Below, piece by piece: positions 18,393 to 64,000 of a stretch of DNA of 64,000 bases (its first letter is position 1; every line of letters begins with the position of its first letter). The notes below the pieces were generated by a model that was not told where the DNA came from, searched no databases, and worked only from the letters and a program-made list of their open reading frames with translations. The stretch comes from Naegleria gruberi (taxonomy: Eukaryota): the NCBI GenBank assembly GCA_000004985.1, contig GG738857.1; one strand, 5' to 3'. Position numbers and translations under genes: made by a program.

Positions 18393-19865
18393 ATGCCAAG
18401 TTTCATCAAGAGATTATCGTTACGAAATTCATTTCAACAACGTCAATCCATTCACCAAGATCGTAGAAGAACGATCCGAGCCATTCCCTTCTTTCAAGAT
18501 TTTAAAATTGCCATCATTGGAGATGAATGTGTTGGAAAATCGAATATTGCAATGAGATGTGCTGGAAAGGAGACGTTTGTGCCAGAACATGAACCAACGA
18601 TTGAAGATGAGTATAATTGTAAGGTACAGTTTATGTTTAGGTTGCCAGCACCTTTGGTGGAAGAAATAGTTTCGAATGGTGGTGAAGGAGATTCGAATGA
18701 ATTAATGAGAAGTAATCCCAAAGGTGATATTTATGGATATAAACAATTGGCACATGATTTGGAATTAATACCAATGGAATTGAGAAATTATATGAAATTG
18801 GATAATACTTTGCTATCAATTATTCAACAAAAAAGAGAAAAGGAAGAGGAAATGAAAAAAGCACTTGAGGAGAAACAAAAGAAAATGTTTAGTTTATTCA
18901 AGAAGAAATCAACAACGAGTGATTCTCCACAAAAATCTTCTCATGAGCATGCTGGAAATAATCAATCAGGAGAGGATGGAGATTTTGGAAGAGTAATCAC
19001 TGAGGAAGAGGACATTGATGATTATGTGGATGAATTACTTTCGGATGTGGTTTATAATTTCGAGCAGGACATTATTTGTAGAGTGACCATTGTGGATACG
19101 AGTGGGAGATCGGAAGTGAGAAAGGAAGCAACTGATTTGTCTTCAGTGGATGGATACATGTTGGTTTTTGATATGAATAATAAGGCATCATTTGCCAAGA
19201 TTCAGAATTATATTGATGAGTGTAAATTTGCCTACTATGAAAATCCTGCAAGGAAACATTCGGATGCAGCTGCTTCACACAGTTCGAGTAGTGCTCGATT
19301 GTCCTCTGCAAGTAATAATAGTTCAGCAACAATGAATTCAACCTCCTCAGCAAGTGCTGCCTCTTCCAATGTAAATAGTTCTAAACCATCGACAATTGAT
19401 AATCCTCCAATGGTCCTTATAATGAGTAAATGCGATCAGAAACCATCAGCCCTCAAGACCATTAATGCAGAGTATGGCTATGCTCTTGGAGATACTCATC
19501 ATTTTCCATTCTTTGTCACTAGTGCATGTGAAAATTTGAATATCCAAGAAGCATTAGAAGGTCTCCTGAGTGAAATTATCAAGAAGAACATTGAGGAAGG
19601 AGTTTACGAAACTCAAAACAAATCAATGCCAACACCACTACCATCTGCTGATGAAACTTTAAGCAAGACCAATAGTAGAAACTTTAAATTTGAGAATCAA
19701 AATATCAGTATCAGTAGCAATGCCAGTGATTACACTCCTGAATTGTTAACGTTCAGTGTTGGAAATGGAGTTGTTCCACAGAGTCCTCCTGAGAAGAAGA
19801 TTGTTCGTCAGAGTGTCTCTGCAACTCTGAGAAAGTATGTCGTTCAACAATTTAAAAAGAAATAA
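18393..19865 (+). CDS. Ras-superfamily small GTPase-like protein with large insertions and non-canonical catalytic motifs
   Basis: G1 is IAIIGDECVGKS, switch I is PTIEDEY, G3 reads DTSGRSE (Arg where the catalytic Gln sits) and G4 reads SKCD instead of NKxD. There is a roughly 130-aa acidic/K-rich insert and an S/N/A-rich low-complexity segment. The ATG at 18393 is preceded by caaa. Confidence 0.6.
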   Translation: MPSFIKRLSLRNSFQQRQSIHQDRRRTIRAIPFFQDFKIAIIGDECVGKSNIAMRCAGKETFVPEHEPTIEDEYNCKVQFMFRLPAPLVEEIVSNGGEGDSNELMRSNPKGDIYGYKQLAHDLELIPMELRNYMKLDNTLLSIIQQKREKEEEMKKALEEKQKKMFSLFKKKSTTSDSPQKSSHEHAGNNQSGEDGDFGRVITEEEDIDDYVDELLSDVVYNFEQDIICRVTIVDTSGRSEVRKEATDLSSVDGYMLVFDMNNKASFAKIQNYIDECKFAYYENPARKHSDAAASHSSSSARLSSASNNSSATMNSTSSASAASSNVNSSKPSTIDNPPMVLIMSKCDQKPSALKTINAEYGYALGDTHHFPFFVTSACENLNIQEALEGLLSEIIKKNIEEGVYETQNKSMPTPLPSADETLSKTNSRNFKFENQNISISSNASDYTPELLTFSVGNGVVPQSPPEKKIVRQSVSATLRKYVVQQFKKK

Positions 19866-27871: not shown

Positions 27872-30574
27872 AATGTCTGAAGATTGGGTTTGTGTTTTGT
27901 GATGCGATTTTATTAATGGGGGTGTGATGACTATCACAAATAATAGGCCGATAGGACATATGTGTTAGAAGCTGTTAAACAACGTGGAAATGCACTTAAA
28001 TATGCCGATGAAGCATTTAAAAAAGATAGAGAAATTGTATTGGAGGCTGTTAAAAAAAACGGATTAATAATTCAATATGCTGATTCATCATTGAAAAGAG
28101 ATAGAGAAATTGTATTGGAAGCTGTTAAACAGCGTGGATATGCAATTCAATATGCTGATTCATTGTTAAAGAAAGATAGAGAAATTGTATTGGAATGTGT
28201 TAAACAAGATGGATTGGCACTTGAATATGTTGATTTATCATTACAAAAAGATAGAGAAATTGTGTTGGCAGCTGTTAAACAAAATGGATTGGCACTTCGA
28301 TATGCTGATTCATCATTGAAAAAAGATAGAGAAATTGCATTGGAATCTGTTAAACAACGTGGATATGCAATTCAATATGCTGATTCGTTGTTAAAGAAAG
28401 ATAGAGAAATTGTATTGGAAGCAGTTAAACAAGATGGATTGGCACTGCAATATGCTTATTTTCAAAATGACAGAGAAATTGTATTGGAAGCTGTTAAGCA
28501 AAATGGATCAGCAGTTGAATACGCTGATTCATCATTGAAAAAAGATAGAGAATTTATATTGGAATCTGTTAAACAACATGGATTGACTCTTAAATATGCT
28601 GATTCATTATTGAAGAAAGATAGAGAAGTTGTTTCGGAAGCTGTTAAACAAGATATATTGGCACTTAAATATGTTGATTCATCATTTAAAAGAGATAGAG
28701 AATTTATATTGGAAGCAGTTAAACAACATTCATTGGCACTTGAATATGCTGATTCATCTTTACAAAGAGATATCGTTTTTACTTATTCACTTTTTAAATT
28801 GAACAAAGAAAATGCAAGAAAGTTCTCACCCTCTATAACCAAAACCATTGAAGAATCCATTAATCTTCAGAGAAAGCTGTCAAGCAATATAATTGAACAA
28901 TACTCCAAAATATTTATGGATGAAAAGGATTTATATTATGCTATTGAATTAACAAGTCTCTTTAATCCAACACCAAAAGGTACAATATTCAATTTCAATT
29001 CTATCTATACACCAATATTTATTGAAAAATTGATTATTTTTCAAATATTGAAACAAATGAACCATTCAGAATTGTCTAATGATATTATTGCTCTTATTGA
29101 TTTACAAAGTACCAAAGCTAACTATTATTTATATTGTTTCAGATTGGACAAATTTCTTGAAGATAATCCCTGTCAATCAACAAGAATGAAAGATTTGAAG
29201 AATATTGTGGAACAAGTTGCAACAAACTTTGAAACGTCATTTTATACAAAACAGGAAATTAATGAAATTATGATTTTTGCCAACAAGTGGTTTGAAAATG
29301 AGTAAACATTTGAAAATTACAAACAAATAATTTGTAAATATAACGAGCTGAGAGGAGATTTATCAAAAGTATTCAAATCTCTCAATTATTTCTATAATTA
29401 TTTCAAAAATGATTATGATTTCATTTCAGTATTAGGATATGGAGGTGAAGGTGTTGCATTCAAAGTATTTCATAAAAGTAGTAAATCATTAAGGGCATTA
29501 AAATTAAAATATGACCCAGAGGAATCTGAAGAATCAACAAAAGAAACCATTAATTTATTGAACAGAACAGACATTGAAGGAAAGATCAAATGTTTTGATT
29601 GTGAAATTATTCAAAATCATTTATATTCAGTGATGGAACTTGGAGAGGAATCATTATCAAATTACATTTCAAGAAATAATGAAAGTGAAATTTATAGAAA
29701 TGGATTCATTAAGAAGGAAAAGTTGATTGAAATTCTTGAAATATTTATCAAAGTATTGAACTCAGTTCAATCAATTCATGATCACAATATTTTACACAGA
29801 GATTTAGATCCTCAAAATATTGTCAAAGTTCAAGATTTATACAAAATTATTGATTTTGAAACATCAAGAGTTATCAAGACAGGTAATTCAATTACAATAG
29901 CTCGTGGAAAGTTTGCATACATGTCTCCTGAAGTTTCACATGATAATTATTCTGATGATTTATTGAAAAGTGGTGATGATGAAAAACTTGCTCACAATGT
30001 TGGACAAATTACCATTTCATGTGATATATTTTCATTGGGATGTATTTTATTGAAATTATTAACAAATTGTCCATTACAACTATGTTCAACATTTGTTAAT
30101 GATTCAGATGTCTCAAAATATAATGACAAGTATCCATATTTTAGTGGTCATGGAAAATATTTCTATACAGTTGTAACAACAACAGAGGGAGAAATGAAAT
30201 TACATTATGCAATTGAAAAACTAATCAATGAAACGATTAATCCAGATTTAGGAGTGAATAACATATTAATTAGAAGCATTATTAGCATGATTCAAAGAGA
30301 TTCATCAAAAAGATTGGATTGTTATTCTCACAAGTTAACAATTGAGAATATTTTGAAATTTTTGAAAGGTGAAATCAAAGATATCACTTTGAATATTGAA
30401 AAACAAGTTGGAGAATTGAAGAAAATCTCACCATTAAGAAGTTACTCTCAACTTGCTGAAGAAAATAACAAAATTACAGATGAAAAAACCAAACTTTCGG
30501 ATGAAAATAGCAACCTGTTAGAAAGAATTAAAATGTTGGAAGAGGAAATAAGAAAACTCACACAAACCATATGA
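27872..30574 (+). pseudogene. DUF4116-repeat / atypical kinase / coiled-coil family, copy B, interrupted by an in-frame TAA at 29303..29305. Exon 1 is 27872..27886 and the intron is 27887..27945
   Basis: The micro-exon ATGTCTGAAGATTGG (MSEDW) is followed by a GTTTGT...AATAG intron and an exon 2 in frame from GCCGATAGG. ORFs 27962..29305 and 29558..30574 lie in one frame. They are separated only by a TAA where every other copy has CAA (ENE*TFENYKQ against ENEQTFENYKQ). There is also an in-frame deletion in one repeat (YAYFQNDREIV). Confidence 0.7.
27946..28790 (+). repeat. Tandem 75-bp coding repeat array of family copy B (about 11 repeats)
   Basis: Periodic LEAVKQxGxALxYADSSLKKDREIV units at nucleotide level. 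Confidence 0.85.
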
Positions 30575-44235: not shown

Positions 44236-45747
44236 ATGTATAAACTAACTCATCTTCCTCCTGAAATTATCATTAAAATCATCGAGTATCATGTAGAAGG
44301 CTTGGGTATTTCCCTCCTCGGAAACAAACTTGTTATTCTCGAATCAATTCAATCAGCCTTGTTGTGGGAAAGAATTTGCAAAGCCTTTTCGAATGAGTCA
44401 CTTATACGAAACTATTTGACTGACAACTTTTGGAAAAAGATTATTCTTGAAAACTTTGTGAGGGAAACTATCGGATTGGACAGCCAAACTCTGAAATCAA
44501 CACCTAGGAGGAAAATTATTGAACATATCAAATCAAAACAAGATGTAAAAACACTCTTGGTCAATTATCGAGAATTCTTAAAATTAATTACTGACTTTCC
44601 ACACTCAATTTCAATCTATCAACGATACTTCACTAGAAAGGATGTATTGGAAACATTTCAAATTGTAGTATTGGGACATCATCAAGCAGGAAAATCACAA
44701 CTCGTCAATTCATTTCTTCAAATTGAAACAAATCAATTGACCTCTCACAATAATGAAGTTTACACTCGTGTTGAGAAACATCCAATGACTCCTAATCAAA
44801 TGTTTCGAATGCAAGTAATGGACACTCACTTTCTTCATACCTGTTCTCAGCATATTTCACAAGCTCATGCCATTCTACTGGTTTGTTCACATTGTCAATT
44901 GGAGGAAACCTTGTTCGAAACTGAGCAAATTCTCAAACGATGCATTGAAATTAAACAATCATCTTCCTTTCCACTCATTGTAGCCTTGAACAAATCCGAC
45001 GAATCCAGAAAGAGTCTCAAGAAGAGACGTTCCAACAATGATTACAACAATAACTCGAGTCCTTCAACACCTAAATCACCAACCTCTAATAACTGCTGTC
45101 ATGGCTCATACCTACTTGCAGATCCATTCCTATCTTCACCCCCACCAATGTCCTCTTCATCCTCTCCATCATCGACGATATTCAGCAGTCCTCCTCCAAT
45201 ATGTTGTTTCTCTGCTCCAATCATTACAGGAAACAGCCTTCTACTGAGCAATAGTTATAATAACAATAGCAACTGTACTCATCACTTGATGAATACGAGT
45301 TCTGCGACCTTATCTACCATAGCCACAACAATAACAACAACTACAGCCATGAGTACTTCCAATATTTCTTCATCATACAATGGAACACCAACAAGCCTTC
45401 TATTGGGTTCTTCTTCTTCCTTCATTCAAAACAACGTTGGAGGAGGTAATTCTTCAACATGTTGTTCTCATCATCAGCATCATGTAAGAACAGAGGAGGA
45501 TGAATACAAAATGATGGAAAATCTATTAATTCGCTACGGAATGATCAATTATCGAATCATTAGAACGAGTGGTAAGGAGAGGTCGAATGTTGTGGAGGCT
45601 TTTGATGAGTGTGTGTTGCGAGCTAGCTTGAATCATGCCAAGTTGATGGTCGATGTGATTGATGCGGCTGTTGTTCATCACGTTGAAGCAACAGAAAAAT
45701 TCTTTAAAGCAGGCATGCTACAGAGAAAACGATGTGATTTATTGTGA
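44236..45747 (+). CDS. F-box-like N-terminus fused to a Ras-superfamily GTPase-like domain, with an S/T/N-rich low-complexity region
   Basis: LPPEIIIKIIEY is F-box-like. G1 is GHHQAGKS and G4 is LNKSDE. The G3 region is MDTHF. Followed by poly-S/T/N tracts. Confidence 0.6.
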   Translation: MYKLTHLPPEIIIKIIEYHVEGLGISLLGNKLVILESIQSALLWERICKAFSNESLIRNYLTDNFWKKIILENFVRETIGLDSQTLKSTPRRKIIEHIKSKQDVKTLLVNYREFLKLITDFPHSISIYQRYFTRKDVLETFQIVVLGHHQAGKSQLVNSFLQIETNQLTSHNNEVYTRVEKHPMTPNQMFRMQVMDTHFLHTCSQHISQAHAILLVCSHCQLEETLFETEQILKRCIEIKQSSSFPLIVALNKSDESRKSLKKRRSNNDYNNNSSPSTPKSPTSNNCCHGSYLLADPFLSSPPPMSSSSSPSSTIFSSPPPICCFSAPIITGNSLLLSNSYNNNSNCTHHLMNTSSATLSTIATTITTTTAMSTSNISSSYNGTPTSLLLGSSSSFIQNNVGGGNSSTCCSHHQHHVRTEEDEYKMMENLLIRYGMINYRIIRTSGKERSNVVEAFDECVLRASLNHAKLMVDVIDAAVVHHVEATEKFFKAGMLQRKRCDLL

Positions 45748-46000: not shown

Positions 46001-48516
46001 TTATTGTTTGAGTTTTCTATTTTCCTCTTCCAATATTTTAATTCTTTCTAACAGGTTGCTATTTTCCATGGTGTTTTCATCCAAAAGTTTATATAGGTTG
46101 GTGTTTTCCTCTGCGAGTTTGGTATTTTCATCCGAAAGTTTATCAACTTCCTCTGCAAGTTGAGAGTAACTTCTTAATGGTGATATTTTCTTCAATTCTC
46201 CAACTTGTTTTTCAATATTCAAAGTGATATCTTTGATTTCACCTTTCAAGTATTTCAAAATATTCTCAATGGTTAACTTGTGAGAATAACAATTCAATCT
46301 TTTTGATGAATCTCTTTGAATCATGCTAATAATGCTTCTAATCAATATATTATTCACTCCTAAATCTGGATTAATTGATTGATTGATTAGTTTTTCAATT
46401 GCATAATGTAATTTCATTTCTCCCTCTGTTGTTGTCACAACTGTATAGAAATATTTTCCATGTCCACTTAAATATGGATACTTGTCATTATATTTAGAGA
46501 CATCTGGATCATTAACAAATGTTGAACATAGTTGCAGAGGACAATTTGCTAATAATTTCAATAAAATACATCCCAATGAAAATATATCACATGAAATGGT
46601 AATTTGTCCAACATTGTGAGCAAGCTTTTCATCATTATCACTTTTCAATAAATCATCAGAATAATTATCATGTGAAACTTCAGGAGACATGTAGGCAAAC
46701 TTTCCACGAGCAATTGTAATTGAATTACCTGTCTTGATAACTCTTGATGTTTCAAAATCAATTATCTTGTATAAATCTTGAACTTTGACAATATTTTGAG
46801 GATCTAAATCTCTGTGTAAAATATTGTGATCATGAATTGATTGAACTGAGTTCAATACTTTGATAAATATATCAAGAATTTCAATCAACTTTTCCTTAAT
46901 AATGAATCCATTTCTATAAATTCCATCTTGATTATTTCTTGAAATATAATTTGATAATGATTCCTCTCCAAGTTCCATCACTGTATACAAATGATTTTGA
47001 ATAATGTCACAATCAAAACATTTGATCTTTCCTTCAATGTCTGTTCTTTTCAATAAATTAATGGTTTCTTTTGTTGATTCTTCAGATTCCTCTGGGTCAT
47101 ATTTTAATTTTAATGCCCTTAATGATTTACTACTTTTGTGAAATACTTTGAATGCAACACCTTCACCTCCATATCCTAATACTGAAATGAAATCATAATT
47201 ATATTTGAAATAATTATAGAAATAATTGAGAGCTTTGAATACTTTTGATAAATCTCCTCTCAGCTCATTATATTTACAAATTATTTGTTTGTAATTTACA
47301 AATGTTTTCTCATTTTCAAACCACTTGTTGGCAAAATTCATAATTTCATTAATTTCCTGTTTTGAATAAAATGATGTTTCGAAATTTGTTGCAACTTGTT
47401 CCACAATATTCTTCAAATCTTTCATTCTTGTTGATTGACAGGGATTATCTTCAATAAATTTGTCCAATCTGAAACAAAATAAATAATAGTTAGCTCTTTC
47501 TGAAAGAACATTTTCAGTGGATAATTCTGAATGGTTCATTTGTTTCAATATTTGAAAAAAAATCAACTTTTCAACAAATATTGGTGTGTAGATAGGATTA
47601 AAATTGAATATTGTACTTTTTGGTGTTGGATTAAAGAGACTTGTTAATTCAATACCATAATATAAATCCTTTTCATCCATAAATATTTTGGAGTATTGTT
47701 CAATTATATTGCTTGACAGCTTTGTCTGAAGATTAATGGATTCTTCAATGGTTTTGGTTATAGAGGGTGAGAACCTTCTTGCATTTTCCTTGTTCAATTT
47801 AATTAATAAATAAATAAATATACTATCTTTTTTAAATGATTCATCAGCATGCTTAAGTGCCAATCCAGCTTGTTTAACAGATTCCAATATAAATTCTCTA
47901 TCTTTTTTCAATGATGAATCAGCATATTCAAGTGCATATCCATCTTGTTTGACAGACTCCAATACAATTTCTCTATCTTTTTTAAATGATGAATCAGCAA
48001 ATTCAAGTGCCAATCCATCTTGTTTGACAGATTCCAATACAATTTCTCTATCTTTTTTAATATTGAATCAGCAAATTCAAGTGCCAATCCATGTTGTTTA
48101 ACAGATTCCAATATAAATTCTCTATCCTTTTTCAATGATGAATCAGCATATTTGAGTGCTGGTCCATAGCGTATAACAGCTTCCAATATAATTTCTCTAT
48201 CTTTTTCCAATGATGAATCAACATATAAAAGTGTCAATCCATTTTGTTTAATAGCTTCCAACACAATTTCTCTATCTTTTTTAAATGCTGGATCAGCATA
48301 TTGAAGTGCCAACCCATTTTGTTTAACAGCTTCCAATACAATTTCTCTATCTTTTTTCAATGATGAATCAGCATTTTCAAGTGTTGATCCATTTTGTTTA
48401 ACAGCTTTCAACACATATTTCCTATCGGCCTATTGTTGCAATCATGAATCATCACACCAATAAAAATAATTATTTTCTCCACAGCAACAAATACCAACCC
48501 ACTCGTTTTTGTTCAT
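46001..48516 (-). pseudogene. DUF4116-repeat / atypical kinase / coiled-coil family, copy C, with a frameshift near 48058. Exon 1 is complement(48499..48516) and the intron is 48430..48498
   Basis: The micro-exon ATGAACAAAAACGAGTGG (MNKNEW) is followed by a GTTGGT...CAACAATAG intron. ORFs 47908..48414 and 46001..48037 overlap in different frames. A 1-nt loss in tcttttttaatattgaatca (consensus tcttttttaaatgatgaatca) at about 48058 explains the shift. The repeat array is shorter (about 8 units). The C-terminal tail has extra LxEEN(T/S)xL mini-repeats. Confidence 0.65.
47830..48429 (-). repeat. Tandem 75-bp coding repeat array of family copy C (about 8 units)
   Basis: Same unit. Includes the frameshifted unit near 48058. 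Confidence 0.8.
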
Positions 48517-49598
48517 TTTTTTAAAGGTATTCTAGACCATCACATTCCGAATCAACTTGATGATTTTTACACCCAAAAAGAACAGTTTCAACTATTACAG
48601 ATGGGTTTTTTTGTTATTGGACGCCATCACATGATCTGTTAAGATTTGCATCCTCTTCTTGTTGATCCATTATGAATTGCTCCTCATCATCTGATTCCGA
48701 GGATCAGAACCAAGCTCTCTCAATCAAATCATCCACCATTAAATCTTGCTCATCTACTTCTGAATTCAACTTCTTAGTCACTCCTTGTTGTGTTTGATAA
48801 GGAATTTATTGCCTAATTTTTGATATATATTTTCAAATGTATGGAGTGTTCCTTTGTGTTGGTGTTTTCTCTATTTTTTTAGGCTTTGAAATAAGGCGCT
48901 AAGATCCACTCATTGATACTGATGAACCATGATCTCAATGAGGTCGAGGAAGATGGATCGAAGAAGAAGCCTATTGATGAATCATCACATAATTGGCATC
49001 ATGATGAAAATAGCAGTCTGGTTGACAGCTGTGTATGTGTAAATAACATCATTATTACTATTCATCTAGCGTTTACTCAATTCATATTCATTCTTATCAT
49101 GTGATTACATAGCTTATTAACCATTACGAACCGTGTGGTCCCATTCTTGCTCTGAATATAAAATTAAAAACCGATCAAAGTTGGTGGCAAGAATGAAAAA
49201 TTTACAAAATCGATCACAAATAAAATAAAATTCAAGTTTTGGTCACCAAAACGACCAAAACGCAGACCAAACAAGTTATTCAAGTTATTGTTGCTTTGAT
49301 TTTTAAATAATATATTTGATAAAATAAAAAGAATAAAAACGGAGCGCGGGAATAAAATTGTAGATGAAGCTTAACATATTGTAAATTTATTGTAAAGTAA
49401 TCTTTTTATGGTTGCATACTTTAATAACAAGCATCATGAATTGCTAGGCAACTCAAGAGTCACTTTAGGGTTGTAATATTTGGTATTGTTGCTGTGTTAC
49501 TATTATCTTTTTTAGAATGCATCCTTTTTTGTCATTTCCATTTCAGTCTTTGTGAAGAAACCTTTCGAATAGAGAAATTGCAAACAAAGAAACAAAAA

Positions 49599-50726
49599 AT
49601 GGGTGGAAAGCTCTCTTCGAATCACAATCATCATCAACACTCCAACAACACTCCACTTCTGCAACAAACTAAACATTCGAATAACAATGACAATCATCAG
49701 AGAATAGTTTTACTGGGAAATACTTCAAGTGGAAAGTCAACTATTTGTGAAATGATTCAATATCAGAAACAACATCAAGCAGATAAATCATGCAATACTT
49801 ACAACCTATTCTATAAGGTAGATTCGAATACAATTTCAAAAACTATTATTGAACAGATATTGTTTGCATCAAAGGATATATCTATTGAGGCAATTATTCG
49901 AGAATATACAAATGATTGCAATAATTTTGATAATTCTACACTTTTTGCATTGTGGAATGATCAGAAATTTAGAAATATTTATCAGAGCTGTCAAGATTCT
50001 CTCAATTTATTCGAAAATGTTGACATTTTTGTAAGGAAACTTAAGAATCATGAAAGTTTCATTCCAGATATTTACATTAAGGGAAATTCTTCTGGAATTA
50101 CAGAGTATGACATTAATTTTGATGACAAGAAAGTGACATTTGTGACTGCAGGTGGAAAAACAAGTGAAAGAAAAAAGTGGAATTTCTGCTTGCAAGGAAA
50201 TGTTTCCGTTTTGGTTTATGTTGTTTCGTTGGCAGAATTCAATCAATCAGGTTATGGAGATGAGAAGGTGAATAGAATGGACGAAAGTTTGAAACTTTAC
50301 AAGGAATTGATGACTCGTGTTTCGAATAGTGGTAATAATACGAGAGTTGTCTTACTGTTTACCAAACCAGATATAATGATGAGGAAACTGAGGAGTTACA
50401 TTGAATTTGGAAGATTATTCGAAACTGAAACACTTACTGATCTTTCACGAATTGTAAACGATTATCACGAAAGGGATGTTCTCAATACAATTATATCGAG
50501 TTTTTTAACCGAAACAAATAATATTTATGGGAAAATACCAGAATATCACATTATTCAGTCGATATCAGAATTGGACATTTCACAACTCGCCAAACTAATG
50601 TTGAATAATGAGAAAAATAGACATTATATTTCTAATTGCTTGTTTGAGAAAATATCGCTTGTGAGATGTTATCAATTAGTGATGGCTCAACAATTGACCG
50701 ATTTAACAATTAAGTGTCAATTATAA
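49599..50726 (+). CDS. Heterotrimeric G-protein alpha-subunit-like protein, highly divergent
   Basis: MGGKLSS N-terminus with the myristoylation Gly2. G1 is LLGNTSSGKST (compare LLGAGESGKST). VTAGGKTSERKKW sits where DVGGQRSERKKW belongs. LLFTKPD sits where NKxD belongs. The real start is the ATG at 49599; the ORF-track start at 49494 is a TTG. Confidence 0.8.
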   Translation: MGGKLSSNHNHHQHSNNTPLLQQTKHSNNNDNHQRIVLLGNTSSGKSTICEMIQYQKQHQADKSCNTYNLFYKVDSNTISKTIIEQILFASKDISIEAIIREYTNDCNNFDNSTLFALWNDQKFRNIYQSCQDSLNLFENVDIFVRKLKNHESFIPDIYIKGNSSGITEYDINFDDKKVTFVTAGGKTSERKKWNFCLQGNVSVLVYVVSLAEFNQSGYGDEKVNRMDESLKLYKELMTRVSNSGNNTRVVLLFTKPDIMMRKLRSYIEFGRLFETETLTDLSRIVNDYHERDVLNTIISSFLTETNNIYGKIPEYHIIQSISELDISQLAKLMLNNEKNRHYISNCLFEKISLVRCYQLVMAQQLTDLTIKCQL

Positions 50727-50957: not shown

Positions 50958-53900
50958 TTAATTTTGTTTGAGTTTTCTATTTTCCTCTTCTAATACTTTA
51001 ATTCTTTCTAATAGGTTGGTATTTTCCTCTACAAGTTGAGAGTAGCTCCTTAATGGTGAGATTTTCTTCAATTCTCCAACTTGTTTTTCAATATTGAAAG
51101 TGATATCTTTGATTTCACCTTTCAAAAATTTCAAAATATTCTTAATTGTTAACTTGTGAGAATAACAATTCAATCTTTTTGATGAATCTCTTTGAATCAT
51201 GCTAATAATGCTTCTAATCAATATGTTATTCACTCCTAAATCTGCATTAATCGTTTCATTGATTAGTTTTTCAATTGCATAATGTAATTTCATTTCTCCC
51301 TCTGTTGTTGTCACAACTGTATAGAAATATTTTCCATGTCCACTAAAATATGGATACTTGTCATTATATTTAGAGACATCTGGATCATTAACAAATCTTT
51401 CACACAATTGCAAAGGACAATTGGTTAATAATTTCAACAAAATGCATCCCAATGAAAATATATCACATGAAATGGTAATTTGTCCAACATTGTGAGCAAG
51501 TTTTTCATTGTCATCACTTTTCAATAAATCATCAGAATAATTATCATGTGAAACTTCAGGAGACATGTATGCAAACTTTCCACGAGCAATTGTAATTGAA
51601 TTACCTGTCTTGATAACTCTTGATGTTTCAAAATCAATAATTTTGTAATGATCTTGAACTTTGACAATATTTTGAGGATCTAAATCTCTGTGTAAAATAT
51701 TGTGATCATGAATTGATTGAACAGAGTTCAATACTTTGATAAATATTTCAAGAATTTCAATCAACTTTTCCTTATTAATGAATCCATTTCTATAAATTCC
51801 ATCTTGATTATTTCTTGAAATATAATTTGATAATGATTCCTCTCCAAGTTCCATCACTGAATATAAATGATTTTGAATAATTTCACAATCAAAACATTTG
51901 ATCTTTCCTTCAATGTCTGTTCTGTTCAATAAATTAATGGTTTCTTTTGTTGATTCTTCAGATTCCTCTGGATTATATTTTAATTTTAATGCCCTTAATG
52001 ATTTACTACTTTTGTGAAATACTTTGAATGCAACACCTTCACCTCCATATCCTAATACTGAAATGAAATCATAATTATATTTGAAATAATTATAGAAATA
52101 ATTGAGAGCTTTGAATACTTTTGATAAATCTCCTCTCAGCTCATTATATTTACAAATTATTTGTTTGTAATTATCAAATGTTTTCTCATTTTCAAACCAC
52201 TTGTTGGCAAAAATCATAATTTCATTAATTTCCTGTTTTGTATAAAATGACGTTTCAAAGTTTGTTGCAACTTGTTCCACAATATTCTTCAAATCTTTCA
52301 TTCTTGTTGATTGAGAAGGATTATCTTCAAGAAATTTATCCAATCTGAAACAAAATAAATAATAGTTAGCTTTGGTGCTTTGTAAATCAATTAGAGCAAT
52401 AATATCATTAGACAATTCTGAATGGTTCATTCGTTTCAATATTTGAAAAATAATCAATTTTTCAACAAATATTGGTGTGTAGATAGGATTAAAATTGAAT
52501 ATTGTACTTTTTGGTGTTGGATTAAAGAGACTTGTTAATTCAATAGCATAATATAAATCTTTTTCATCCATAAATATTTTGGAGTATTGTTCAATTATAT
52601 TGCTTGACAGCTTTTTCTGAATATTTAAGCATTCTTCAATGGTTTTGGATATAGAAGGTGAGAACTTTCTTGCATTTTCTTTGTTCAATTTAAATAGCAA
52701 ATAAATAAATTCTCTATCTTTTTTAAATGATGAATCAGCGTATTCAAGTGCTCGTACATTTTGTTTAACAGCTTCCAATACAATTTCTCTATCTTTTTTC
52801 AATAATGAATCAGCATATTTAAGTGCATATCCATCTTGTTTGACAGTTTCCAATATAAATTCTCTATCTTTTTTAAATGATGAATCAGCGTATTCAAGTG
52901 CTCGTACATTTTGTTTAACAGCTTCCAATACAATTTCTCTATCTTTTTTCAATAATGAATCAGCATATTCAAGTGTCAATCCATTTTGTTTAACAGTTTC
53001 CAATATAATTTCTCTATCTTTTTTAAATGATGAATCAGCATATTCAAGTGCCAATCCATTTTGTTTAACAGCTTCCAATATAATTTCTCTATCTTTTTTC
53101 AATAATGAATCAGCATATTCAAGTGCCAATCCATTTTGTTTGACAGCTTCCAATATAAATTCTCTATCTTTTTTAAATGATGAATCAGCATATTGAAGTG
53201 CTCGTACATTTTGTTTAACAGCTTCCAATATAATTTCTCTATCTTTTTTCAATGATGAATCAGCATATTGAAGTGCTCGTCCATTTTGTTTAACAGCTTC
53301 CAATATAAATTCTCTATCTTTTAGAAATGATGAATCAGCATATTTAAGTGCATACCCATCTTGTTTAACAGCTTCCAATATAAATTCTCTATCTTTTTTA
53401 AATGATGAATCAGCATATTTAAGTGCATATTCATTTTGTTTAACAGATTCCAATATAATTTCTCTATCTTTTTTAAATGATGAATCAGCATATTTAAGTG
53501 CCAATCCATTTTGTTTAACAGCTTCCAATATAATTTCTCTATCTTTTTTCAATATTGAATCAGCGTATTCAAGTGCCCACCCATTTTGTTTAACAGCTTC
53601 CAATATAAATTCTCTATCTTTTTTAAATGATGAATCAGCATATTGAAGTGCCAATCCATTTTGTTTAACAGCTTCCAATATAATTTCTCTATCTTTTTTA
53701 AATGATGAATCAGCATATTCAAGTGCCAATCCATGTTGTTTAACAGCTTCCAATACAATTTCTCTATCTTTTTTAAATGATGAATCAGCGTATTCAAGTG
53801 CATATCCATTTTGTTTAACAGCTTCCAATATAATTTCTCTATCTTTTTTCAATAATGAATCAGCGTATTCAAGTGCTGGTCCATAGCGTTTAACAGCTTC

Positions 53901-54533
53901 CAATACAATTTCTCTATCTTTTTTAAATGATGAATCAGCATATTGAAGTGCCCACCCATTTTGTTTAACAGCTTCCAATACAATTTCTCTATCCTTTTTA
54001 AATGATGAATCAGCATCTTCAAGTGCCGATCCATTTTGTTTAACAGCTTCCAATATAATTTCTCTATCTTTTTTAAATGATGAATCAGCAAATTCAAGTG
54101 CCAATCCATTTTGTTTAACAGCTTCCAATATAATTTCTCTATCTTTTTTAAATGATGAATCAGCGTATTGAAGTGCCAATCCATAGTGTTTAACAGCTTC
54201 CAATATAATTTCTCTATCTTTTTTCAATAATGAATCAGCGTATTCAAGTGCTGGTCCATAGCGTTTAACAGCTTCCAATACAATTTCTCTATCTTTTTTA
54301 AATGATGAATCAGCATATTGAAGTGCCCACCCATTTTGTTTAACAGCTTCCAATACAATTTCTCTATCCTTTTTAAATGATGAATCAGCATCTTCAAGTG
54401 CCGATCCATCTTGTTTAACAGCTTCCAACACATATTTCCTATCGGCCTATTGTTGTGATCATGATCATCACATTTTATATAATAATTATTTCACCACACA
54501 GCAACAAATACCAACCCACTCGTTTATGTTCAT
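50958..54533 (-). CDS. DUF4116-repeat / atypical kinase / coiled-coil family, copy D, the only apparently intact member. Exons complement(join(50958..54446,54516..54533))
   Basis: The micro-exon ATGAACATAAACGAGTGG (MNINEW) is followed by a 69-nt GTTGGT...AATAG intron (54447..54515). The exon-2 ORF encodes about 23 25-aa repeats, a linker, a kinase domain with the same atypical motifs as the other copies, and a coiled coil (LLERIKVLEEENRKLKQN). It ends in TAA followed by the 3' flank ttgtttgagttttctattttcc shared with the other copies. Confidence 0.8.
52715..54446 (-). repeat. Tandem 75-bp coding repeat array of family copy D (about 23 units, highly homogenised)
   Basis: Near-identical 75-nt units. 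Both alternative sense frames and one antisense frame are stop-free, which gives spurious ORFs 53321..54433 and 52840..53196. Confidence 0.9.
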
Positions 54534-60540: not shown

Positions 60541-61170
60541 AATATTCACTTCTGGAATTACAGAGTATGACATTAATTTTGATGACAAGAAAGTGACATT
60601 TGTAACTGCAGCTGGAAAAACAAGTGAAAGAAAAAAGTGGAAATGTTTCCGTTTTGGCAGAATTCAATCAAACAGGTTATGGAGATGAGAAGGTGAATAG
60701 AATGGATGAAAGTTTGAAACTTTACAAGGAATTGATGACTCGTGTTTCGAATAATGGTAATAATACAAGAGTTGTCTTACTGTTTACTAAACCAGATATA
60801 ATGATGAGGAAATTGAGGAGTTACATTGAATTTGGAAGATTATTCGAAACTGAAACACTTACTGATCTTTCACGAATTGTAAACGATTATCACGAAAGGG
60901 ATGTTCTCAATACAATTATATCGAGCTATTTGAATGCAATAAATAATATTTATGGGAAAATACCAGAATATCACATTATTCAGTCGATATCAGAATTGGA
61001 CATTTCACAACTCGCCAATGTTGAATAATGAGAAAAATAGACATTATATTTCTAATTGCTTGTAATTGCTTGTTTGAGAAAATATCGCTTGTGAGATGTT
61101 ATCAATTAGTGATGGCTCAACAATTGACCGATTTAACAATTAAGTGTAAATTATAAAGTTTAAGGATGAA
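60541..61170 (+). pseudogene. Truncated duplicate of the 3' two-thirds of the G-alpha gene at 49599..50726
   Basis: Near-identical nucleotide sequence to 50088-50760 (acttctggaattacagagtatgacattaattttgatgacaagaaagtgacatttgt...). Internal deletions remove NFCLQGNVSVLVYVVSLAEF-coding segments. The 5' end stops abruptly at 60541 and there is no upstream start. Confidence 0.7.
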
Positions 61171-61284
61171 GTAATAGTTTTCTGCAGAATAAATTGCATC
61201 CATATTGAGTAGGACTGTATGCATCATCTGCCTCTCAACTTTGTTCACAAAATAGTTCAAAGCTGATCAACTTGGGAAATTTCC

Positions 61285-61465: not shown

Positions 61466-64000
61466 TTATTGTTTGAGTTTTCTTATTTCTTCTTCCAACA
61501 TTTTAATTCTTTCTAATAGGTTGCTATTTTCCATTGAAAGGTTGGTGTTTTCCTCTGCAAGTTTGTCAACATCCTCTAATAGGTTGGTATTTTCATCCGA
61601 AAGTTTATCAACTTCCTCTGCCAGTTGAGAGTAACTTCTTAATGGTGAGATTTTCTTCAATTCTGCAATTTCCTTTTCAATATTCAAAGTGATATCTTTG
61701 ATCTCACCTTTCAAGTATTTCAAAATATTCTCAATTGTTAACTTGTGAGAATAACAATCCAATCTTTTTGATGAATCTCTTTGAATCATGCTAATAATGC
61801 TTCTAATTAATATGTTATTCACTCCTAAATCTGGATTAATTGATTCATTGATTAGTTTTTCAATTGCATAATGTAATTTCATTTCTCCCTCTGTTGTTGT
61901 TATAACTGTATAGAAATATTTTCCATGACCACTAAAATATGGATAATTATCATTATATTTCGAGACATCTGAATCATTAACAAATCTTTCACACAATTGC
62001 AAAGGACAATTGGTCAATAATTTCAATAAAATACATCCCAATGAAAATATATCACACGAAATGGTAATTTGTCCAACATTGTGAGCAAGCTTTTCATTGT
62101 CATCACTTTTCAATAAATCATCAGAATAATTATCATGTGAAACTTCAGGAGACATGTATGCAAACTTTCCACGAGCAATTGTAATTGAATTACCTGTCTT
62201 GATAACTCTTGATGTTTCAAAATCAATAATTTTGTATAGATCTTGAACTTTGACAATATTTTGAGGATCTAAATCTCTGTGTAAAATATTGTGATCATGA
62301 ATTGATTGAACTGAGTTCAATACTTTGATAAATATATCAAGAATTTCAATCAACTTTTCCTTATTAATGAATCCATTTCTATAAATTCCATCTTGATTAT
62401 TTCTATAAATATAATTTGATAATGATTCCTCTCCAAGTTCCATCACTGTATACAAATGATTTTGAATAATTTCACAATCAAAACATTTGATCTTTCCTTC
62501 AATATCTGTTCTTTTCAATAAATTAATGGTTTCTTTTGTTGATTCTTCAGATTCCTCTGGATTATATTTTAATTTTAACGCCCTTAATGATTTACTACTT
62601 TTGTGAAATACTTTGAATGCAACACCTTCACCTCCATATCCTAATACTGAAATAAAATCATAATTATATTTGAAATAATTATAGAAATAATTGAGAGCCT
62701 TGAATACTTTTGATAAATCTCCTCTCAGCTCATTATATTTACACACTATTTGTTTGTAATTATCAAATGTTTTCTCATTTTCAAACCACTTGTTGGCAAA
62801 AATCATNNNNNNNNNNNNNNNNNNNNNNNNNNNNNNNNNNNNNNNNNNNNNNNNNNAGCCATAAATATTTTGGAGTATTTTTCAATTATATTGCTTGACA
62901 GTTTTGTCTGAATATTTAAGCATTCTTCAATGGTTTTGGATATAGAAGGTGAGAACTTTCTTGCATTTTCTTTGTTCAATTTAAATAGCAAATAAATAAA
63001 TTCTCTATCTTTTTTAAATGATGAATCAACATATTTAAGTGCCAATATATCTTGTTTAACAGCTTCCGAAACAACTTCTCTATCTTTTTTAAATGATGAA
63101 TCAGCATATCTAAGTGTTGATCCATGTTGTTTAACAGTTTCCAATATAAATTCTCTATCTTTTTTCAATAATGAATCAGCATATTCAAGTGCTCGTACAT
63201 TTTGTTTAACAGCTTCCAATATAATTTCTCTATCTTTTTTAAATGATGAATCAGCATATTCAAGTGCCAATCCATTTTGTTTAACAGCTTCCAATATAAT
63301 TTCTCTATCGTTTTTAAATGATGAATCAGCATATTCAAGTGCCAACCCATTTTGTTTAACAGCTTCCAATATAAATTCTCTATCTTTTTTAAATGATGAA
63401 TCAGCATATTCAAGTGCCAATCCATTTTGTTTAACAGCTTCCAATATAATTTCTCTATCTTTTTTAAATGATGAATCAGCATATTCAAGTGCTCGTACAT
63501 TTTGTTTAACAGCTTCCAATATAATTTCTCTATCTTTTTTAAATGATAAATCAGCATATTGAAGTGCTCGTCCATGTTGCTTAACAGCTTCCAATATAAA
63601 TTCTCTATCTTTTAGAAATGATGAATCAGCATATTTAAGTGCATACCCATCTTGTTTAACAGCTTCCAATATAAATTCTCTATCTTTTTTAAATGATGAA
63701 TCAGCATATTTAAGTGCATATCCATTTTGTTTAACAGCTTCCAATATAAATTCTCTATCTTTTTTAAATGATGAATCAGCATATTTAAGTGCCAATTCAT
63801 TTTGTTTAACAGCTTCCAATATAATTTCTCTATCTTTTTTAAATGATGAATCAGCATATTCAAGTGCCCATCCATTTTGTTTAACAGCTTCCAATATAAT
63901 TTCTCTATCTTTTTTAAATGATTAATCAGCATATTCAAGTGCCCACCCATTTTGTTTAACAGCTTCCAATACAATTTCTCTATCTTTTTTAAATGATGAA
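61466..64000 (-). CDS. DUF4116-repeat / atypical kinase / coiled-coil family, copy E. It is 5'-partial (runs off the window), is interrupted by an assembly gap, and has an in-frame TAA in the repeat array at about 63921
   Basis: ORF 61466..62806 covers the kinase and coiled coil (tail with extra DKLSDENTNLLE / LAEENTNL mini-repeats). ORF 62803..63894 covers the linker and repeats. The two are separated by 50 N. Upstream, gattaatca stands where the consensus is gattcatca (ADSSF becomes AD*SF). Confidence 0.6.
62807..62856. other. Assembly gap (50 N) inside family copy E
   Basis: Run of n. Compared with copy D, about 480 nt of linker/kinase N-lobe coding sequence is missing here, so the true gap size is unknown. 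Confidence 0.95.
62995..64000 (-). repeat. Tandem 75-bp coding repeat array of family copy E, continuing past the window end
   Basis: Same 75-nt periodic unit as the other copies, with alternative-frame ORFs 63165..63575 and 63612..63974. Confidence 0.85.

What the first reader, a model, noticed from the sequence alone, without database searches (positions are those of the whole stretch)
49599..50726. G-alpha-like protein lacking the catalytic Gln and other nucleotide-binding consensus residues
The P-loop (GNTSSGKST) and the SERKKW/switch II context are recognisable. DVGGQ is replaced by TAGGK, so the catalytic Gln becomes Lys and the Mg-coordinating Asp becomes Thr. NKxD is replaced by TKPD. 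A Gln-less G-alpha is predicted to be GTPase-deficient. The Ras-like protein at 18393-19865 in the same window similarly has DTSGRSE, with Arg at the Gln position, and SKCD. Both look like constitutive, non-canonical GTPases.
Basis: partly seen in the sequence, partly recalled or inferred. Interest (0 to 1): 0.55.

Follow-up and report, generated by a model that had tools for sequence, protein, structure and literature searches.

The report
Catalytically stripped G-alpha paralogue of Naegleria
This is an intact, conserved Naegleria gruberi gene for a G-protein alpha-subunit relative that keeps the parts that hold GTP but has lost every residue needed to cleave it, one member of a Naegleria-specific clade of such atypical subunits, a kind of protein already noted in the literature.

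Summary
ORF 49599-50726 (+) encodes a 375-aa protein 100% identical to Naegleria gruberi XP_002679518.1, annotated only as "predicted protein". It is a clear G-alpha family member (Pfam PF00503, E=1.9e-45; AF2 model pLDDT 78, all top PDB fold matches G-alpha).

Four alignment methods, ungapped across switch I and II, place Lys187 at the catalytic Gln, Thr183 at the Mg-linked Asp and Thr255 at the NKxD Asn.
- The arginine finger is Lys161.
- P-loop Gly42 and Glu43 are Thr and Ser.
- G5 Ala is Ser.
- The alphaN helix is absent.
- The receptor-binding tail is replaced by a conserved 40-aa module.

The binding determinants are kept: GxxxxGKS, the GG of G3, and Lys and Asp of G4. TKPD is a normal G4 motif in Mx/dynamin GTPases.

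The gene is under purifying selection (dN/dS 0.36). Its G boxes are its best-conserved blocks. It belongs to an 11-member clade of Naegleria and metagenome sequences sharing [TSV]KxD, no Arg finger and a variable residue at the Gln position.

Best reading, inferred: a myristoylated, GTP-binding but hydrolysis-dead pseudo-GTPase. Deviant catalytic motifs in Naegleria G-alphas are already reported, so novelty is modest.

The parts
49599..50726 (+). Single-exon CDS of the atypical G-alpha paralogue (375 aa plus stop). It equals N. gruberi XP_002679518.1 / NAEGRDRAFT_65329 / UniProt D2V8Y8.
   Evidence: ORF and translation. 100% identity over 375/375 residues to P0151. Pfam G-alpha E=1.9e-45. AF2 pLDDT 78 and Foldseek top hits all G-alpha.
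49599..49619 (+). MGGKLSS, an N-myristoylation-type start (Gly2, Ser6). It is followed by about 30 low-complexity residues in place of an alphaN helix.
   Evidence: MG start in 9 of 14 clade sequences listed, and MGGKLS is conserved internally in P0001, whose called start lies further upstream. The match to the PROSITE myristoylation pattern was judged by eye. Residues 1-30 have pLDDT below 50.
49716..49742 (+). G1 / P-loop GNTSSGKST. Lys46 and Ser47 are kept. Gly42 is replaced by Thr and Glu43 by Ser.
   Evidence: Alignments. 89% identical to the orthologue-like proteins in this block, against 63% and 55% overall.
50070..50099 (+). Switch I / G2, IYIKGNSSGI. Lys161 stands at the arginine-finger position (Gai1 Arg178). 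Ser164 stands at the Mg-binding Thr181.
   Evidence: phmmer alignment to Gi alpha-3. MAFFT and hhalign.
50145..50180 (+). G3 / switch II, TAGGKTSERKKW. Thr183 replaces Asp200 and Lys187 replaces Gln204. The Gly-Gly and ERKKW (including the switch II Trp) are kept.
50361..50372 (+). G4, TKPD (Asn269 replaced by Thr; Lys and Asp kept). This is the clade signature [TSV]KxD.
   Evidence: TKPD is a functional G4 in Mx proteins.
50547..50567 (+). G5 region, HIIQSIS, aligned to H-x-TCATD. Cys325 is replaced by Gln and Ala326 by Ser.
   Evidence: Profile-profile alignment.
50604..50723 (+). Clade-specific C-terminal module (NNEKNRHYISNCLF...LTDLTIKCQL). It takes the place of the receptor-binding end of helix alpha5.
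   Evidence: Pfam and hhalign matches stop at residues 311 and 334. The [FY]IS[PN]C[LI] and L[TS]D[IL] motifs are shared in the clade, with I344 and S345 at 90% or more.
60549..61210 (+). 5'-truncated, frameshifted duplicate of the 3' two-thirds of the gene (from codon ~164). It is a pseudogene relic lying next to a duplicated DUF4116-kinase gene.
   Evidence: tblastn pieces fall in different frames. blastn: 50089-50780 matches 60549-61210 at 89.5%. The alignment shows 17-, 18- and 5-nt deletions and a 10-nt insertion. A 108-aa piece is annotated as NAEGRDRAFT_65332.

Best explanation
This is a functional, lineage-specific paralogue of the heterotrimeric G-protein alpha subunit in Naegleria gruberi. 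It has become a pseudo-GTPase.

Shown: it has the complete G-alpha fold (Ras-like domain plus helical domain). It keeps the residues that hold a guanine nucleotide: P-loop Lys46 and Ser47, the Gly-Gly of G3, and Lys256 and Asp258 of G4. It keeps the switch II surface ERKKW. It has lost every cis-acting catalytic element: Gly42 to Thr, Arg178 to Lys, Gln204 to Lys. It has also lost the Asp that holds Mg through a water.

Inferred: the protein is anchored to membranes by N-myristoylation. It loads GTP without a receptor, because the N269T and A326S-type changes favour low affinity and fast exchange, and the receptor-binding tail and alphaN helix are gone. It cannot hydrolyse GTP at a useful rate. 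It would therefore sit in a GTP-type conformation and engage switch-II partners constitutively. Control would come from abundance, localisation or modification rather than from a GTPase timer.
For: - Family and fold: Pfam PF00503 E=1.9e-45. AF2 pLDDT 78, pTM 0.77, with P-loop, switch II, G4 and G5 blocks at pLDDT 85-93. The 50 best Foldseek hits listed are all G-alpha chains, aligned over 329-365 columns. hhalign to canonical G-alpha gives probability 100%.
- Catalytic losses.
- Binding residues kept and constrained: K256 and D258 are at least 90% conserved in the 12-sequence clade alignment, and GK[ST] is present in 10 of 11 P-loops. G boxes are 71-89% identical to the orthologue-like protein P0001, against 63% overall and 54% in the helical domain.
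- Gene maintained: dN/dS is 0.36 against the P0001 gene, whereas the partial duplicate in the same window has decayed by frameshifts.
- The residue at the Gln position varies freely in the clade (K, R, Q, D, T, S) and no member has Arg at position 178. Hydrolysis therefore appears to be unselected.
- Precedents: in N. fowleri Galpha1, non-Gly and non-Glu P-loop residues slow hydrolysis, speed activation and abolish RGS GAP action. Self-activating G-alphas exist in Naegleria (PMC9283941). Gai1 G42V still binds GTPgammaS (PDB 1as0 is among the fold hits). TKPD binds guanine in Mx proteins.
Against: No biochemical data exist and nothing here measures nucleotide binding. Thr183 removes the Asp that positions Mg. 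Thr42 puts a branched side chain next to the gamma-phosphate. Ser321 and Thr255 are both expected to weaken affinity. Together these could leave the pocket empty in vivo, as argued for XLG2. Expression, myristoylation and partners were not tested.
Confidence: 0.5

Rival explanations
1. It is a nucleotide-free decoy or scaffold. The pocket no longer holds GTP or GDP in the cell, and the protein works through nucleotide-independent binding of G-beta-gamma, RGS proteins or other partners, as proposed for plant XLG2.
For: Asp200 to Thr, Asn269 to Thr, Ala326 to Ser and Gly42 to Thr each weaken Mg or nucleotide binding in canonical G proteins (XLG2 preprint discussion). The review PMC8584482 reads deviant motifs in Naegleria G-alphas as reduced or lost nucleotide-dependent activity. 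The switch II ERKKW surface is retained.
Against: Unlike XLG2 (P-loop Lys to Ala, DVGG to RLNP), this protein keeps GxxxxGKS, the GG of G3 and K/D of G4. These are among its most conserved residues across orthologues and the clade. That pattern is hard to explain if the pocket were empty.
Confidence: 0.27
2. It is still a cycling GTPase. Hydrolysis would use a non-canonical route, for example a partner (one of the many Naegleria RGS or other GAP-like proteins) supplying catalytic residues in trans as RapGAP does for Gln-less Rap, or Lys161/Lys187 partly replacing Arg and Gln.
For: Switch I and switch II are highly conserved (72-80% among orthologues), as expected if they still change conformation. 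The Naegleria genus carries a very large RGS repertoire: 28 7TM-RGS plus 79 others in N. fowleri. GTPases that lack the Gln but still hydrolyse are established knowledge (Rap; hydrophobic-substituted GTPases).
Against: The residue at the Gln position is not conserved in the clade (K, R, D, T, S, Q), so no particular substitute is selected. RGS proteins do not supply catalytic residues; they stabilise the Gln and Arg that are missing here. P-loop changes of this type abolished RGS action in N. fowleri Galpha chimeras.
Confidence: 0.15
3. It is a decaying or functionless gene copy in a recently duplicated, fast-evolving region.
For: The window is full of recent segmental duplicates at about 90-96% identity. 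A truncated, frameshifted copy of this very gene lies about 10 kb downstream.
Against: The 375-codon ORF is intact. dN/dS is 0.36 against a relative of 63% amino-acid identity. All the unusual motif residues are identical in two orthologue-like proteins from other samples. G boxes are conserved above the protein average. A confident G-alpha fold is predicted.
Confidence: 0.04

Closest known systems
Canonical heterotrimeric G-alpha subunits (Pfam PF00503; e.g. human Gi alpha-1; N. fowleri Galpha7, PDB 6ne6)
   Same: Same two-domain fold. P-loop GxxxxGKS, switch II GG-x-SERKKW, NRM-ES and xKxD are shared. There is an N-terminal MG lipidation-type start.
   Different: It lacks Gly42, Glu43, Arg178, Asp200, Gln204, Asn269 and Ala326. 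It has no alphaN helix. The last ~16 residues of the receptor-binding alpha5 helix are replaced by an unrelated 40-aa module.
N. fowleri Galpha1 (P-loop 23-TAQ-25) and self-activating Nf Galpha5/7 (PMC9283941)
   Same: Same genus. Natural replacement of the P-loop Gly and Glu slows hydrolysis, speeds activation and removes RGS sensitivity. Receptor-independent GTP loading occurs.
   Different: From that paper's discussion of these proteins, they still have the arginine finger and hydrolyse GTP. The Gln state was not checked directly. The window protein has lost the Gln, the Arg and the Asp as well, and belongs to a separate clade.
Plant extra-large G proteins (XLG2), 'decoy' G-alpha (bioRxiv 10.1101/795088; review PMC8584482)
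   Same: A G-alpha-fold protein that has lost the arginine finger, the catalytic Gln, the P-loop Gly and the G5 Ala. It is proposed to act independently of a GTPase cycle.
   Different: XLG2 also lost the P-loop Lys and the whole DVGG, and it has a long Cys-rich N-terminal extension. The Naegleria protein keeps GKS, GG and K/D and has no such extension. The two origins are independent, since the clade holds only Naegleria and metagenome sequences.
Constitutively GTP-bound small pseudo-GTPases (Rnd1-3, RhoH) and oncogenic Ras Q61K/R, Galpha Q-to-L and R-to-C mutants (established knowledge, not tested here)
   Same: The same logic applies: the nucleotide pocket is intact and catalytic positions are substituted, giving a GTP-locked state controlled by expression rather than by hydrolysis.
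   Different: These are different families or somatic mutants. The Naegleria protein additionally lacks the Mg-linked Asp.
Mx/dynamin G4 motif TKPD (PMC6408538)
   Same: Identical four-residue guanine-binding motif.
   Different: This is motif-level convergence only. There is no dynamin-family homology; Pfam finds G-alpha.

Membership tests
G-protein alpha subunit family (Pfam PF00503) | Significant match to the family profile above the curated cut-off | tested here: met
   155.9 bits against a cut-off of 48.8, E=1.9e-45, residues 22-311. hhalign probability 100% to a canonical G-alpha alignment.
G-protein alpha subunit family (Pfam PF00503) | Ras-like domain with an all-helical domain inserted between G1 and switch I | tested here: met
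   The AF2 model (pLDDT 78) shows helices at 76-159 between strand 33-40 and strands 168-183. Whole-chain Foldseek matches to solved G-alphas have TM 0.6-0.7 normalised to the target.
G-protein alpha subunit family (Pfam PF00503) | Canonical G1-G5 nucleotide-binding and catalytic motifs (GxGESGKST, RxxTxGI, DVGGQ, NKxD, TCAT) | tested here: not met
   G1 keeps GKS but has T42 and S43. G2 has K161 for Arg. G3 is TAGGK. G4 is TKPD. G5 is IQSI. It is a member by homology and fold, but atypical in its motifs.
G-protein alpha subunit family (Pfam PF00503) | AlphaN helix (G-beta contact) and C-terminal alpha5 tail (receptor contact) | tested here: not met
   Residues 1-30 are low-complexity with pLDDT below 50. 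The profile alignment ends at residue 334, and the last 40 residues are clade-specific.
G-protein alpha subunit family (Pfam PF00503) | GTP binding and hydrolysis; G-beta-gamma, RGS and receptor coupling | not testable with these tools
   Needs biochemistry.
Pseudo-GTPases (catalytically inactive GTPase-fold proteins) | GTPase fold with substitution of residues essential for hydrolysis, conserved in evolution | tested here: met
   G42T, R178K and Q204K are identical in P0001 and P0002. dN/dS is 0.36.
Pseudo-GTPases (catalytically inactive GTPase-fold proteins) | Demonstrated absence of GTP hydrolysis | not testable with these tools
   Inferred only from mutational precedents.
Plant XLG-type decoy G-alpha | Loss of P-loop Lys and of DxxG; long Cys-rich N-terminal extension with NLS | tested here: not met
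   Lys46, Gly185 and Gly186 are present. The N-terminal region is only 34 residues without Cys.
Naegleria '[TSV]KxD' G-alpha-like clade (defined here) | [TSV]KxD G4, no Arg at position 178, SLSEFN, NSIIxEY, YHIVNT, [FY]IS[PN]C[LI] and L[TS]D[IL] C-terminal motifs; grouping in a tree | tested here: met
   Motif table. An NJ clade of 11 sequences from N. gruberi, N. lovaniensis, N. fowleri and metagenomes, with nothing else from the 134 sequences falling inside it. No bootstrap was done.

The most novel reading that the evidence does not exclude
The [TSV]KxD clade may be a distinct, so far undescribed class of G-alpha-derived switch in Heterolobosea. It would be receptor-independent, with the alpha5 tail exchanged for a new conserved C-terminal module and the alphaN helix lost. 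It would be myristoylated and fast-exchanging but hydrolysis-dead. In the window protein's lineage, Lys161 and Lys187 would compensate for the lost Mg-binding Asp, giving a Mg-independent GTP-locked state. Such a protein would report GTP availability or act as a permanent membrane platform rather than as a timer.
Probability: 0.15. Interest if true: 0.6.

Novelty: new member of a known kind. Interest (0 to 1): 0.3.

Why it matters
Naegleria carries one of the largest G-alpha repertoires known: 44 in N. gruberi according to PMC8584482. Only canonical members have been studied biochemically, and those in N. fowleri. A conserved clade that keeps the nucleotide pocket but discards the whole catalytic apparatus and the receptor-coupling tail is a natural experiment. 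It bears on whether G-alpha proteins can signal without a GTPase cycle, the same question raised by plant XLGs, and here it arose independently. For genome annotation, it shows that 'predicted protein' D2V8Y8 and its relatives should be labelled atypical, probably catalytically inactive, G-alpha-like proteins. The general phenomenon is already in the literature, so this refines what is known and is not a surprise.

Tried and rejected
- The word-indexed homologue search returned only 2-3 proteins in all three attempts. The second attempt used too strict an E-value. Family sampling therefore rests on the exhaustive representative search, whose list is limited to the best 150.
- The first structure prediction, from a 3-sequence alignment, was unusable (pLDDT 49). 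The second, with the 12-sequence clade alignment, gave pLDDT 78.
- The AlphaFold-database fold library was not available. Model coordinates are not exposed, so pocket geometry and GTP/Mg docking could not be examined.
- The exact-sequence contig look-up of the window protein found nothing, although the cluster look-up identified it as XP_002679518.1.
- Anantharaman et al. 2011, the primary source on deviant Naegleria G-alphas, is not held. I rely on how PMC8584482 cites it.
- No paper mentions this protein's accession numbers.
- The supplements of PMC9283941 hold no sequences to place the 13 N. fowleri G-alphas relative to the clade.
- Gene neighbourhood as a functional clue was rejected. The contig of the clade member P0020 shares no neighbours with the window. 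The G-alpha / DUF4116-kinase adjacency in the window is explained by segmental duplication.
- 'A Gln placed elsewhere' was rejected, because the switch I to switch II stretch aligns without gaps.
- Pseudogene status was rejected.

Full report
**Source and gene model**

The window is AT-rich (about 32% GC). It is packed with long ORFs for eukaryotic signalling proteins: DUF4116-repeat protein kinases, Ras-like GTPases and an F-box/LRR protein.

ORF 49599-50726 (+) translates to 375 residues starting MGGKLSS. It is 100% identical over its whole length to Naegleria gruberi XP_002679518.1 (NAEGRDRAFT_65329, UniProt D2V8Y8). That entry is annotated only as "predicted protein" and sits on a 573-kb contig. 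The gene has a single exon. The ATG at 49599 is supported because the orthologue-like protein P0001 is conserved from MGGKLS onward but not upstream of it.

**Check of the observation**

Pfam G-alpha (PF00503) matches residues 22-311 at E=1.9e-45.

Four methods agree on the residue equivalences: phmmer alignments to solved G-alpha chains, MAFFT with 150 relatives plus human Gi alpha-1, an L-INS-i alignment of the clade and a profile-profile comparison (probability 100%, E=5.8e-42, 292 columns). It is consistent with the Gi segments printed.

| Element | Gi alpha-1 residue | Window protein |
|---|---|---|
| P-loop | G40-A-G42-E43-S-G-K46-S47-T | G40-N-T42-S43-S-G-K46-S47-T |
| Switch I | Arg178 (arginine finger) | Lys161 |
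| Switch I | Thr181 (Mg ligand) | Ser164 |
| G3 | Asp200 | Thr183 |
| G3 | Gly202, Gly203 | Gly185, Gly186 |
| G3 | Gln204 (catalytic) | Lys187 |
| Switch II | SERKKW | SERKKW (Trp194) |
| G4 | Asn269-Lys-x-Asp272 | Thr255-Lys256-Pro-Asp258 |
| G5 | Thr-Cys325-Ala326-Thr | Ile-Gln320-Ser321-Ile |

The stretch from the switch I Gly to the switch II Trp is 29 residues in both proteins. No gap can therefore move a Gln into the catalytic position.

Among the 150 best cluster representatives, counting those with a residue at the column, 126 of 146 have Gln, 142 of 149 have Asp, 124 of 147 have Asn and 124 of 146 have Arg178. The combination seen here is therefore truly atypical.

**Fold**

A structure prediction from a 3-sequence alignment failed (pLDDT 49). 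With the 12-sequence clade alignment, AlphaFold2 gave pLDDT 78 and pTM 0.77. The P-loop, switch II, G4 and G5 blocks scored 85-93. Residues 1-30 were disordered. A set of helices at 76-159 lies between the first strand and switch I, which is the helical domain.

The 50 best Foldseek matches in the PDB are all G-alpha subunits. They align over 329-365 columns, with TM up to 0.70 normalised to the target.

**Relatives**

The exhaustive representative search found 2620 relatives at E<0.001. Two metagenome proteins are orthologue-like: P0001 (63% identity) and P0002 (55%). Both keep every unusual residue: GNTSSGK, YIKGxSSGI, FVTAGGK and, where present, LLFTKPD and YHIIxSIS.

A further set shares these features with the window protein:
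- [TSV]KxD in place of NKxD
- no Arg at position 178
- SLSEFN, NSIIxEY and YHIVNT
- a C-terminal [FY]IS[PN]C[LI] ... L[TS]D[IL] module

This set comprises N. gruberi NAEGRDRAFT_66226, _49275, _73162 and _67917, N. lovaniensis C9374_003200 and _002998, N. fowleri FDP41_002682, and several metagenome sequences.

In a neighbour-joining tree of 134 sequences, these form one 11-member clade with nothing else inside it (no bootstrap). Other Gln-less G-alphas from chlorarachniophytes, Anaeramoeba and a fungus fall outside the clade, so similar losses have happened repeatedly in eukaryotes.

Within the clade the residue at the Gln position varies: K, K, K, R, Q, S, S, T, T, K, R, D, D, D. The GG of G3, the P-loop GK[ST] (10 of 11) and the K and D of G4 are retained in nearly all members.

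**Selection**

Against the P0001 gene, dN is 0.26, dS is 0.73 and dN/dS is 0.36 (Nei-Gojobori).

Identity to P0001 by block:

| Block | Identity |
|---|---|
| P-loop / alpha1 | 89% |
| Switch I | 80% |
| Switch II | 72% |
| G4 | 71% |
| Helical domain | 54% |
| Whole protein | 63% |

The degenerate pocket and the switches are therefore the most constrained parts of the protein.

A built-in contrast lies in the same window. A 5'-truncated copy of the gene's 3' two-thirds sits at 60549-61210, at 89.5% identity. It carries 17-, 18- and 5-nt deletions and a 10-nt insertion, so it has decayed.

**Interpretation**

Shown:
- It is a G-alpha homologue with the full fold.
- The catalytic residues are gone.
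- The binding residues are kept and constrained.
- The gene is under purifying selection.
- There is no alphaN helix.
- The receptor-binding tail is replaced.

Inferred from established knowledge and from experiments in the same genus:
- Substitution of the P-loop Gly and Glu slows hydrolysis, accelerates activation and abolishes RGS action in N. fowleri G-alpha chimeras. Gi alpha-1 G42V is GTPase-deficient (PMC9283941).
- The arginine finger and the Gln are the two residues that stabilise the transition state.
- An Ala-to-Ser change in G5 weakens nucleotide affinity.
- TKPD is not a defect. It is the functional guanine-binding motif of Mx/dynamin GTPases (PMC6408538). From my own knowledge, not checked here, those GTPases bind nucleotide weakly and exchange without a GEF.

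Taken together, the most likely behaviour is receptor-independent GTP loading without hydrolysis. That makes it a GTP-locked, membrane-tethered pseudo-GTPase, with the MGGKLS myristoylation-type start conserved in the clade. Confidence is about 0.5.

The main rival is an empty-pocket decoy like plant XLG2 (0.27). The loss of the Mg-linked Asp favours this rival. The retention and conservation of GKS, GG and K/D count against it, because XLG2 has lost them. A still-cycling enzyme with trans-supplied or non-canonical catalysis (0.15) and a dead gene (0.04) are less likely.

**Comparison with what is known**

The review PMC8584482 states that N. gruberi has about 44 G-alpha subunits. [quoted passage not shown] It cites Anantharaman et al. 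2011 for this. I could not read that paper.

Lineage-specific diversification of N. gruberi G-alphas is also noted in PMC3971589. No paper mentions this particular protein.

The finding is therefore a real, well-defined member of an already recognised kind, the atypical or pseudo-GTPase G-alpha. What this analysis adds is the clade definition, the extra lost residues, the replaced C-terminus, and the evidence that the pocket is still under constraint.

**The companion remark**

The Ras-like ORF 18393-19865 does have DTSGRSE, with Arg at the Ras Gln61 position, and SKCD. It also has two long insertions.

**Verdict**

Novelty is modest and interest is 0.3.

Noticed in passing
window 60549-61210 (+): A 5'-truncated, frameshifted partial duplicate of the G-alpha-like gene, 89.5% identical and starting at codon ~164. 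GenBank annotates a 108-aa 'predicted protein' (NAEGRDRAFT_65332) from one of its frames. It is most likely a pseudogene fragment rather than a gene.
   Followed up: yes
window 14802-17699 (+), 27962-30574 (+), 46001-48573 (-), 50958-54443 (-), 61466-64000 (-): There are at least five paralogous DUF4116-repeat protein-kinase genes, 82-96% identical at the DNA level. The G-alpha gene and its truncated copy each sit tail-to-tail with one of them, so the pair was duplicated as a block. Some copies (27962-29305 / 29558-30574 and 61466-62806 / 62803-63894) are split into two ORFs. This could mean an intron, a frameshift or a deletion.
   Followed up: partly
window 52705-54443: A 75-bp tandem array of 23.2 copies with 90% matches encodes the 25-residue DUF4116 repeats (EAVKQNGxALEYADSSFKKDREIIL) of the kinase on the minus strand. 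Repeat number differs between paralogues.
   Followed up: partly
window 18393-19865 (+): A 490-aa Ras-family protein with P-loop GDECVGKS and switch I PTIEDEY. It has DTSGRSE (Arg at the Ras Gln61 position), SKCD instead of NKCD, and SAC instead of SAK. It also carries a ~150-aa insertion after strand beta2 and a Ser-rich insertion before G4.
   Followed up: partly
window 44236-45747 (+): A 503-aa protein with an F-box-like N-terminus (LPPEIIIKIIEY) and a weak Ras-family match (E=9e-7). Its P-loop is GHHQAGKS and NKSD is intact. G3 reads DTHFL instead of DTAGQ, and there is a long Ser/Thr-rich insertion. This is a third degenerate GTPase domain in the same 64 kb.
   Followed up: no
protein P0002 (metagenome relative), last 11 residues: The C-terminal KIGRASCRERV appears to be the translation of an Illumina adapter (AAGATCGGAAGAGCGTCGTGTAGGGAAAGAGTG). 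This was recognised from memory of the adapter sequence. If so, the contig is adapter-contaminated and the protein is truncated at about residue 241.
   Followed up: partly
representative hits P0068, P0070 (chlorarachniophytes), P0114 (Anaeramoeba), P0037 (fungus Whalleya), P0072/P0101 (metagenomes): Other G-alpha proteins outside the Naegleria clade also combine TKxD with Met, Ala or Cys at the catalytic Gln position. Loss of the Gln together with the Asn-to-Thr change in G4 seems to recur independently in several eukaryotic lineages.
   Followed up: partly
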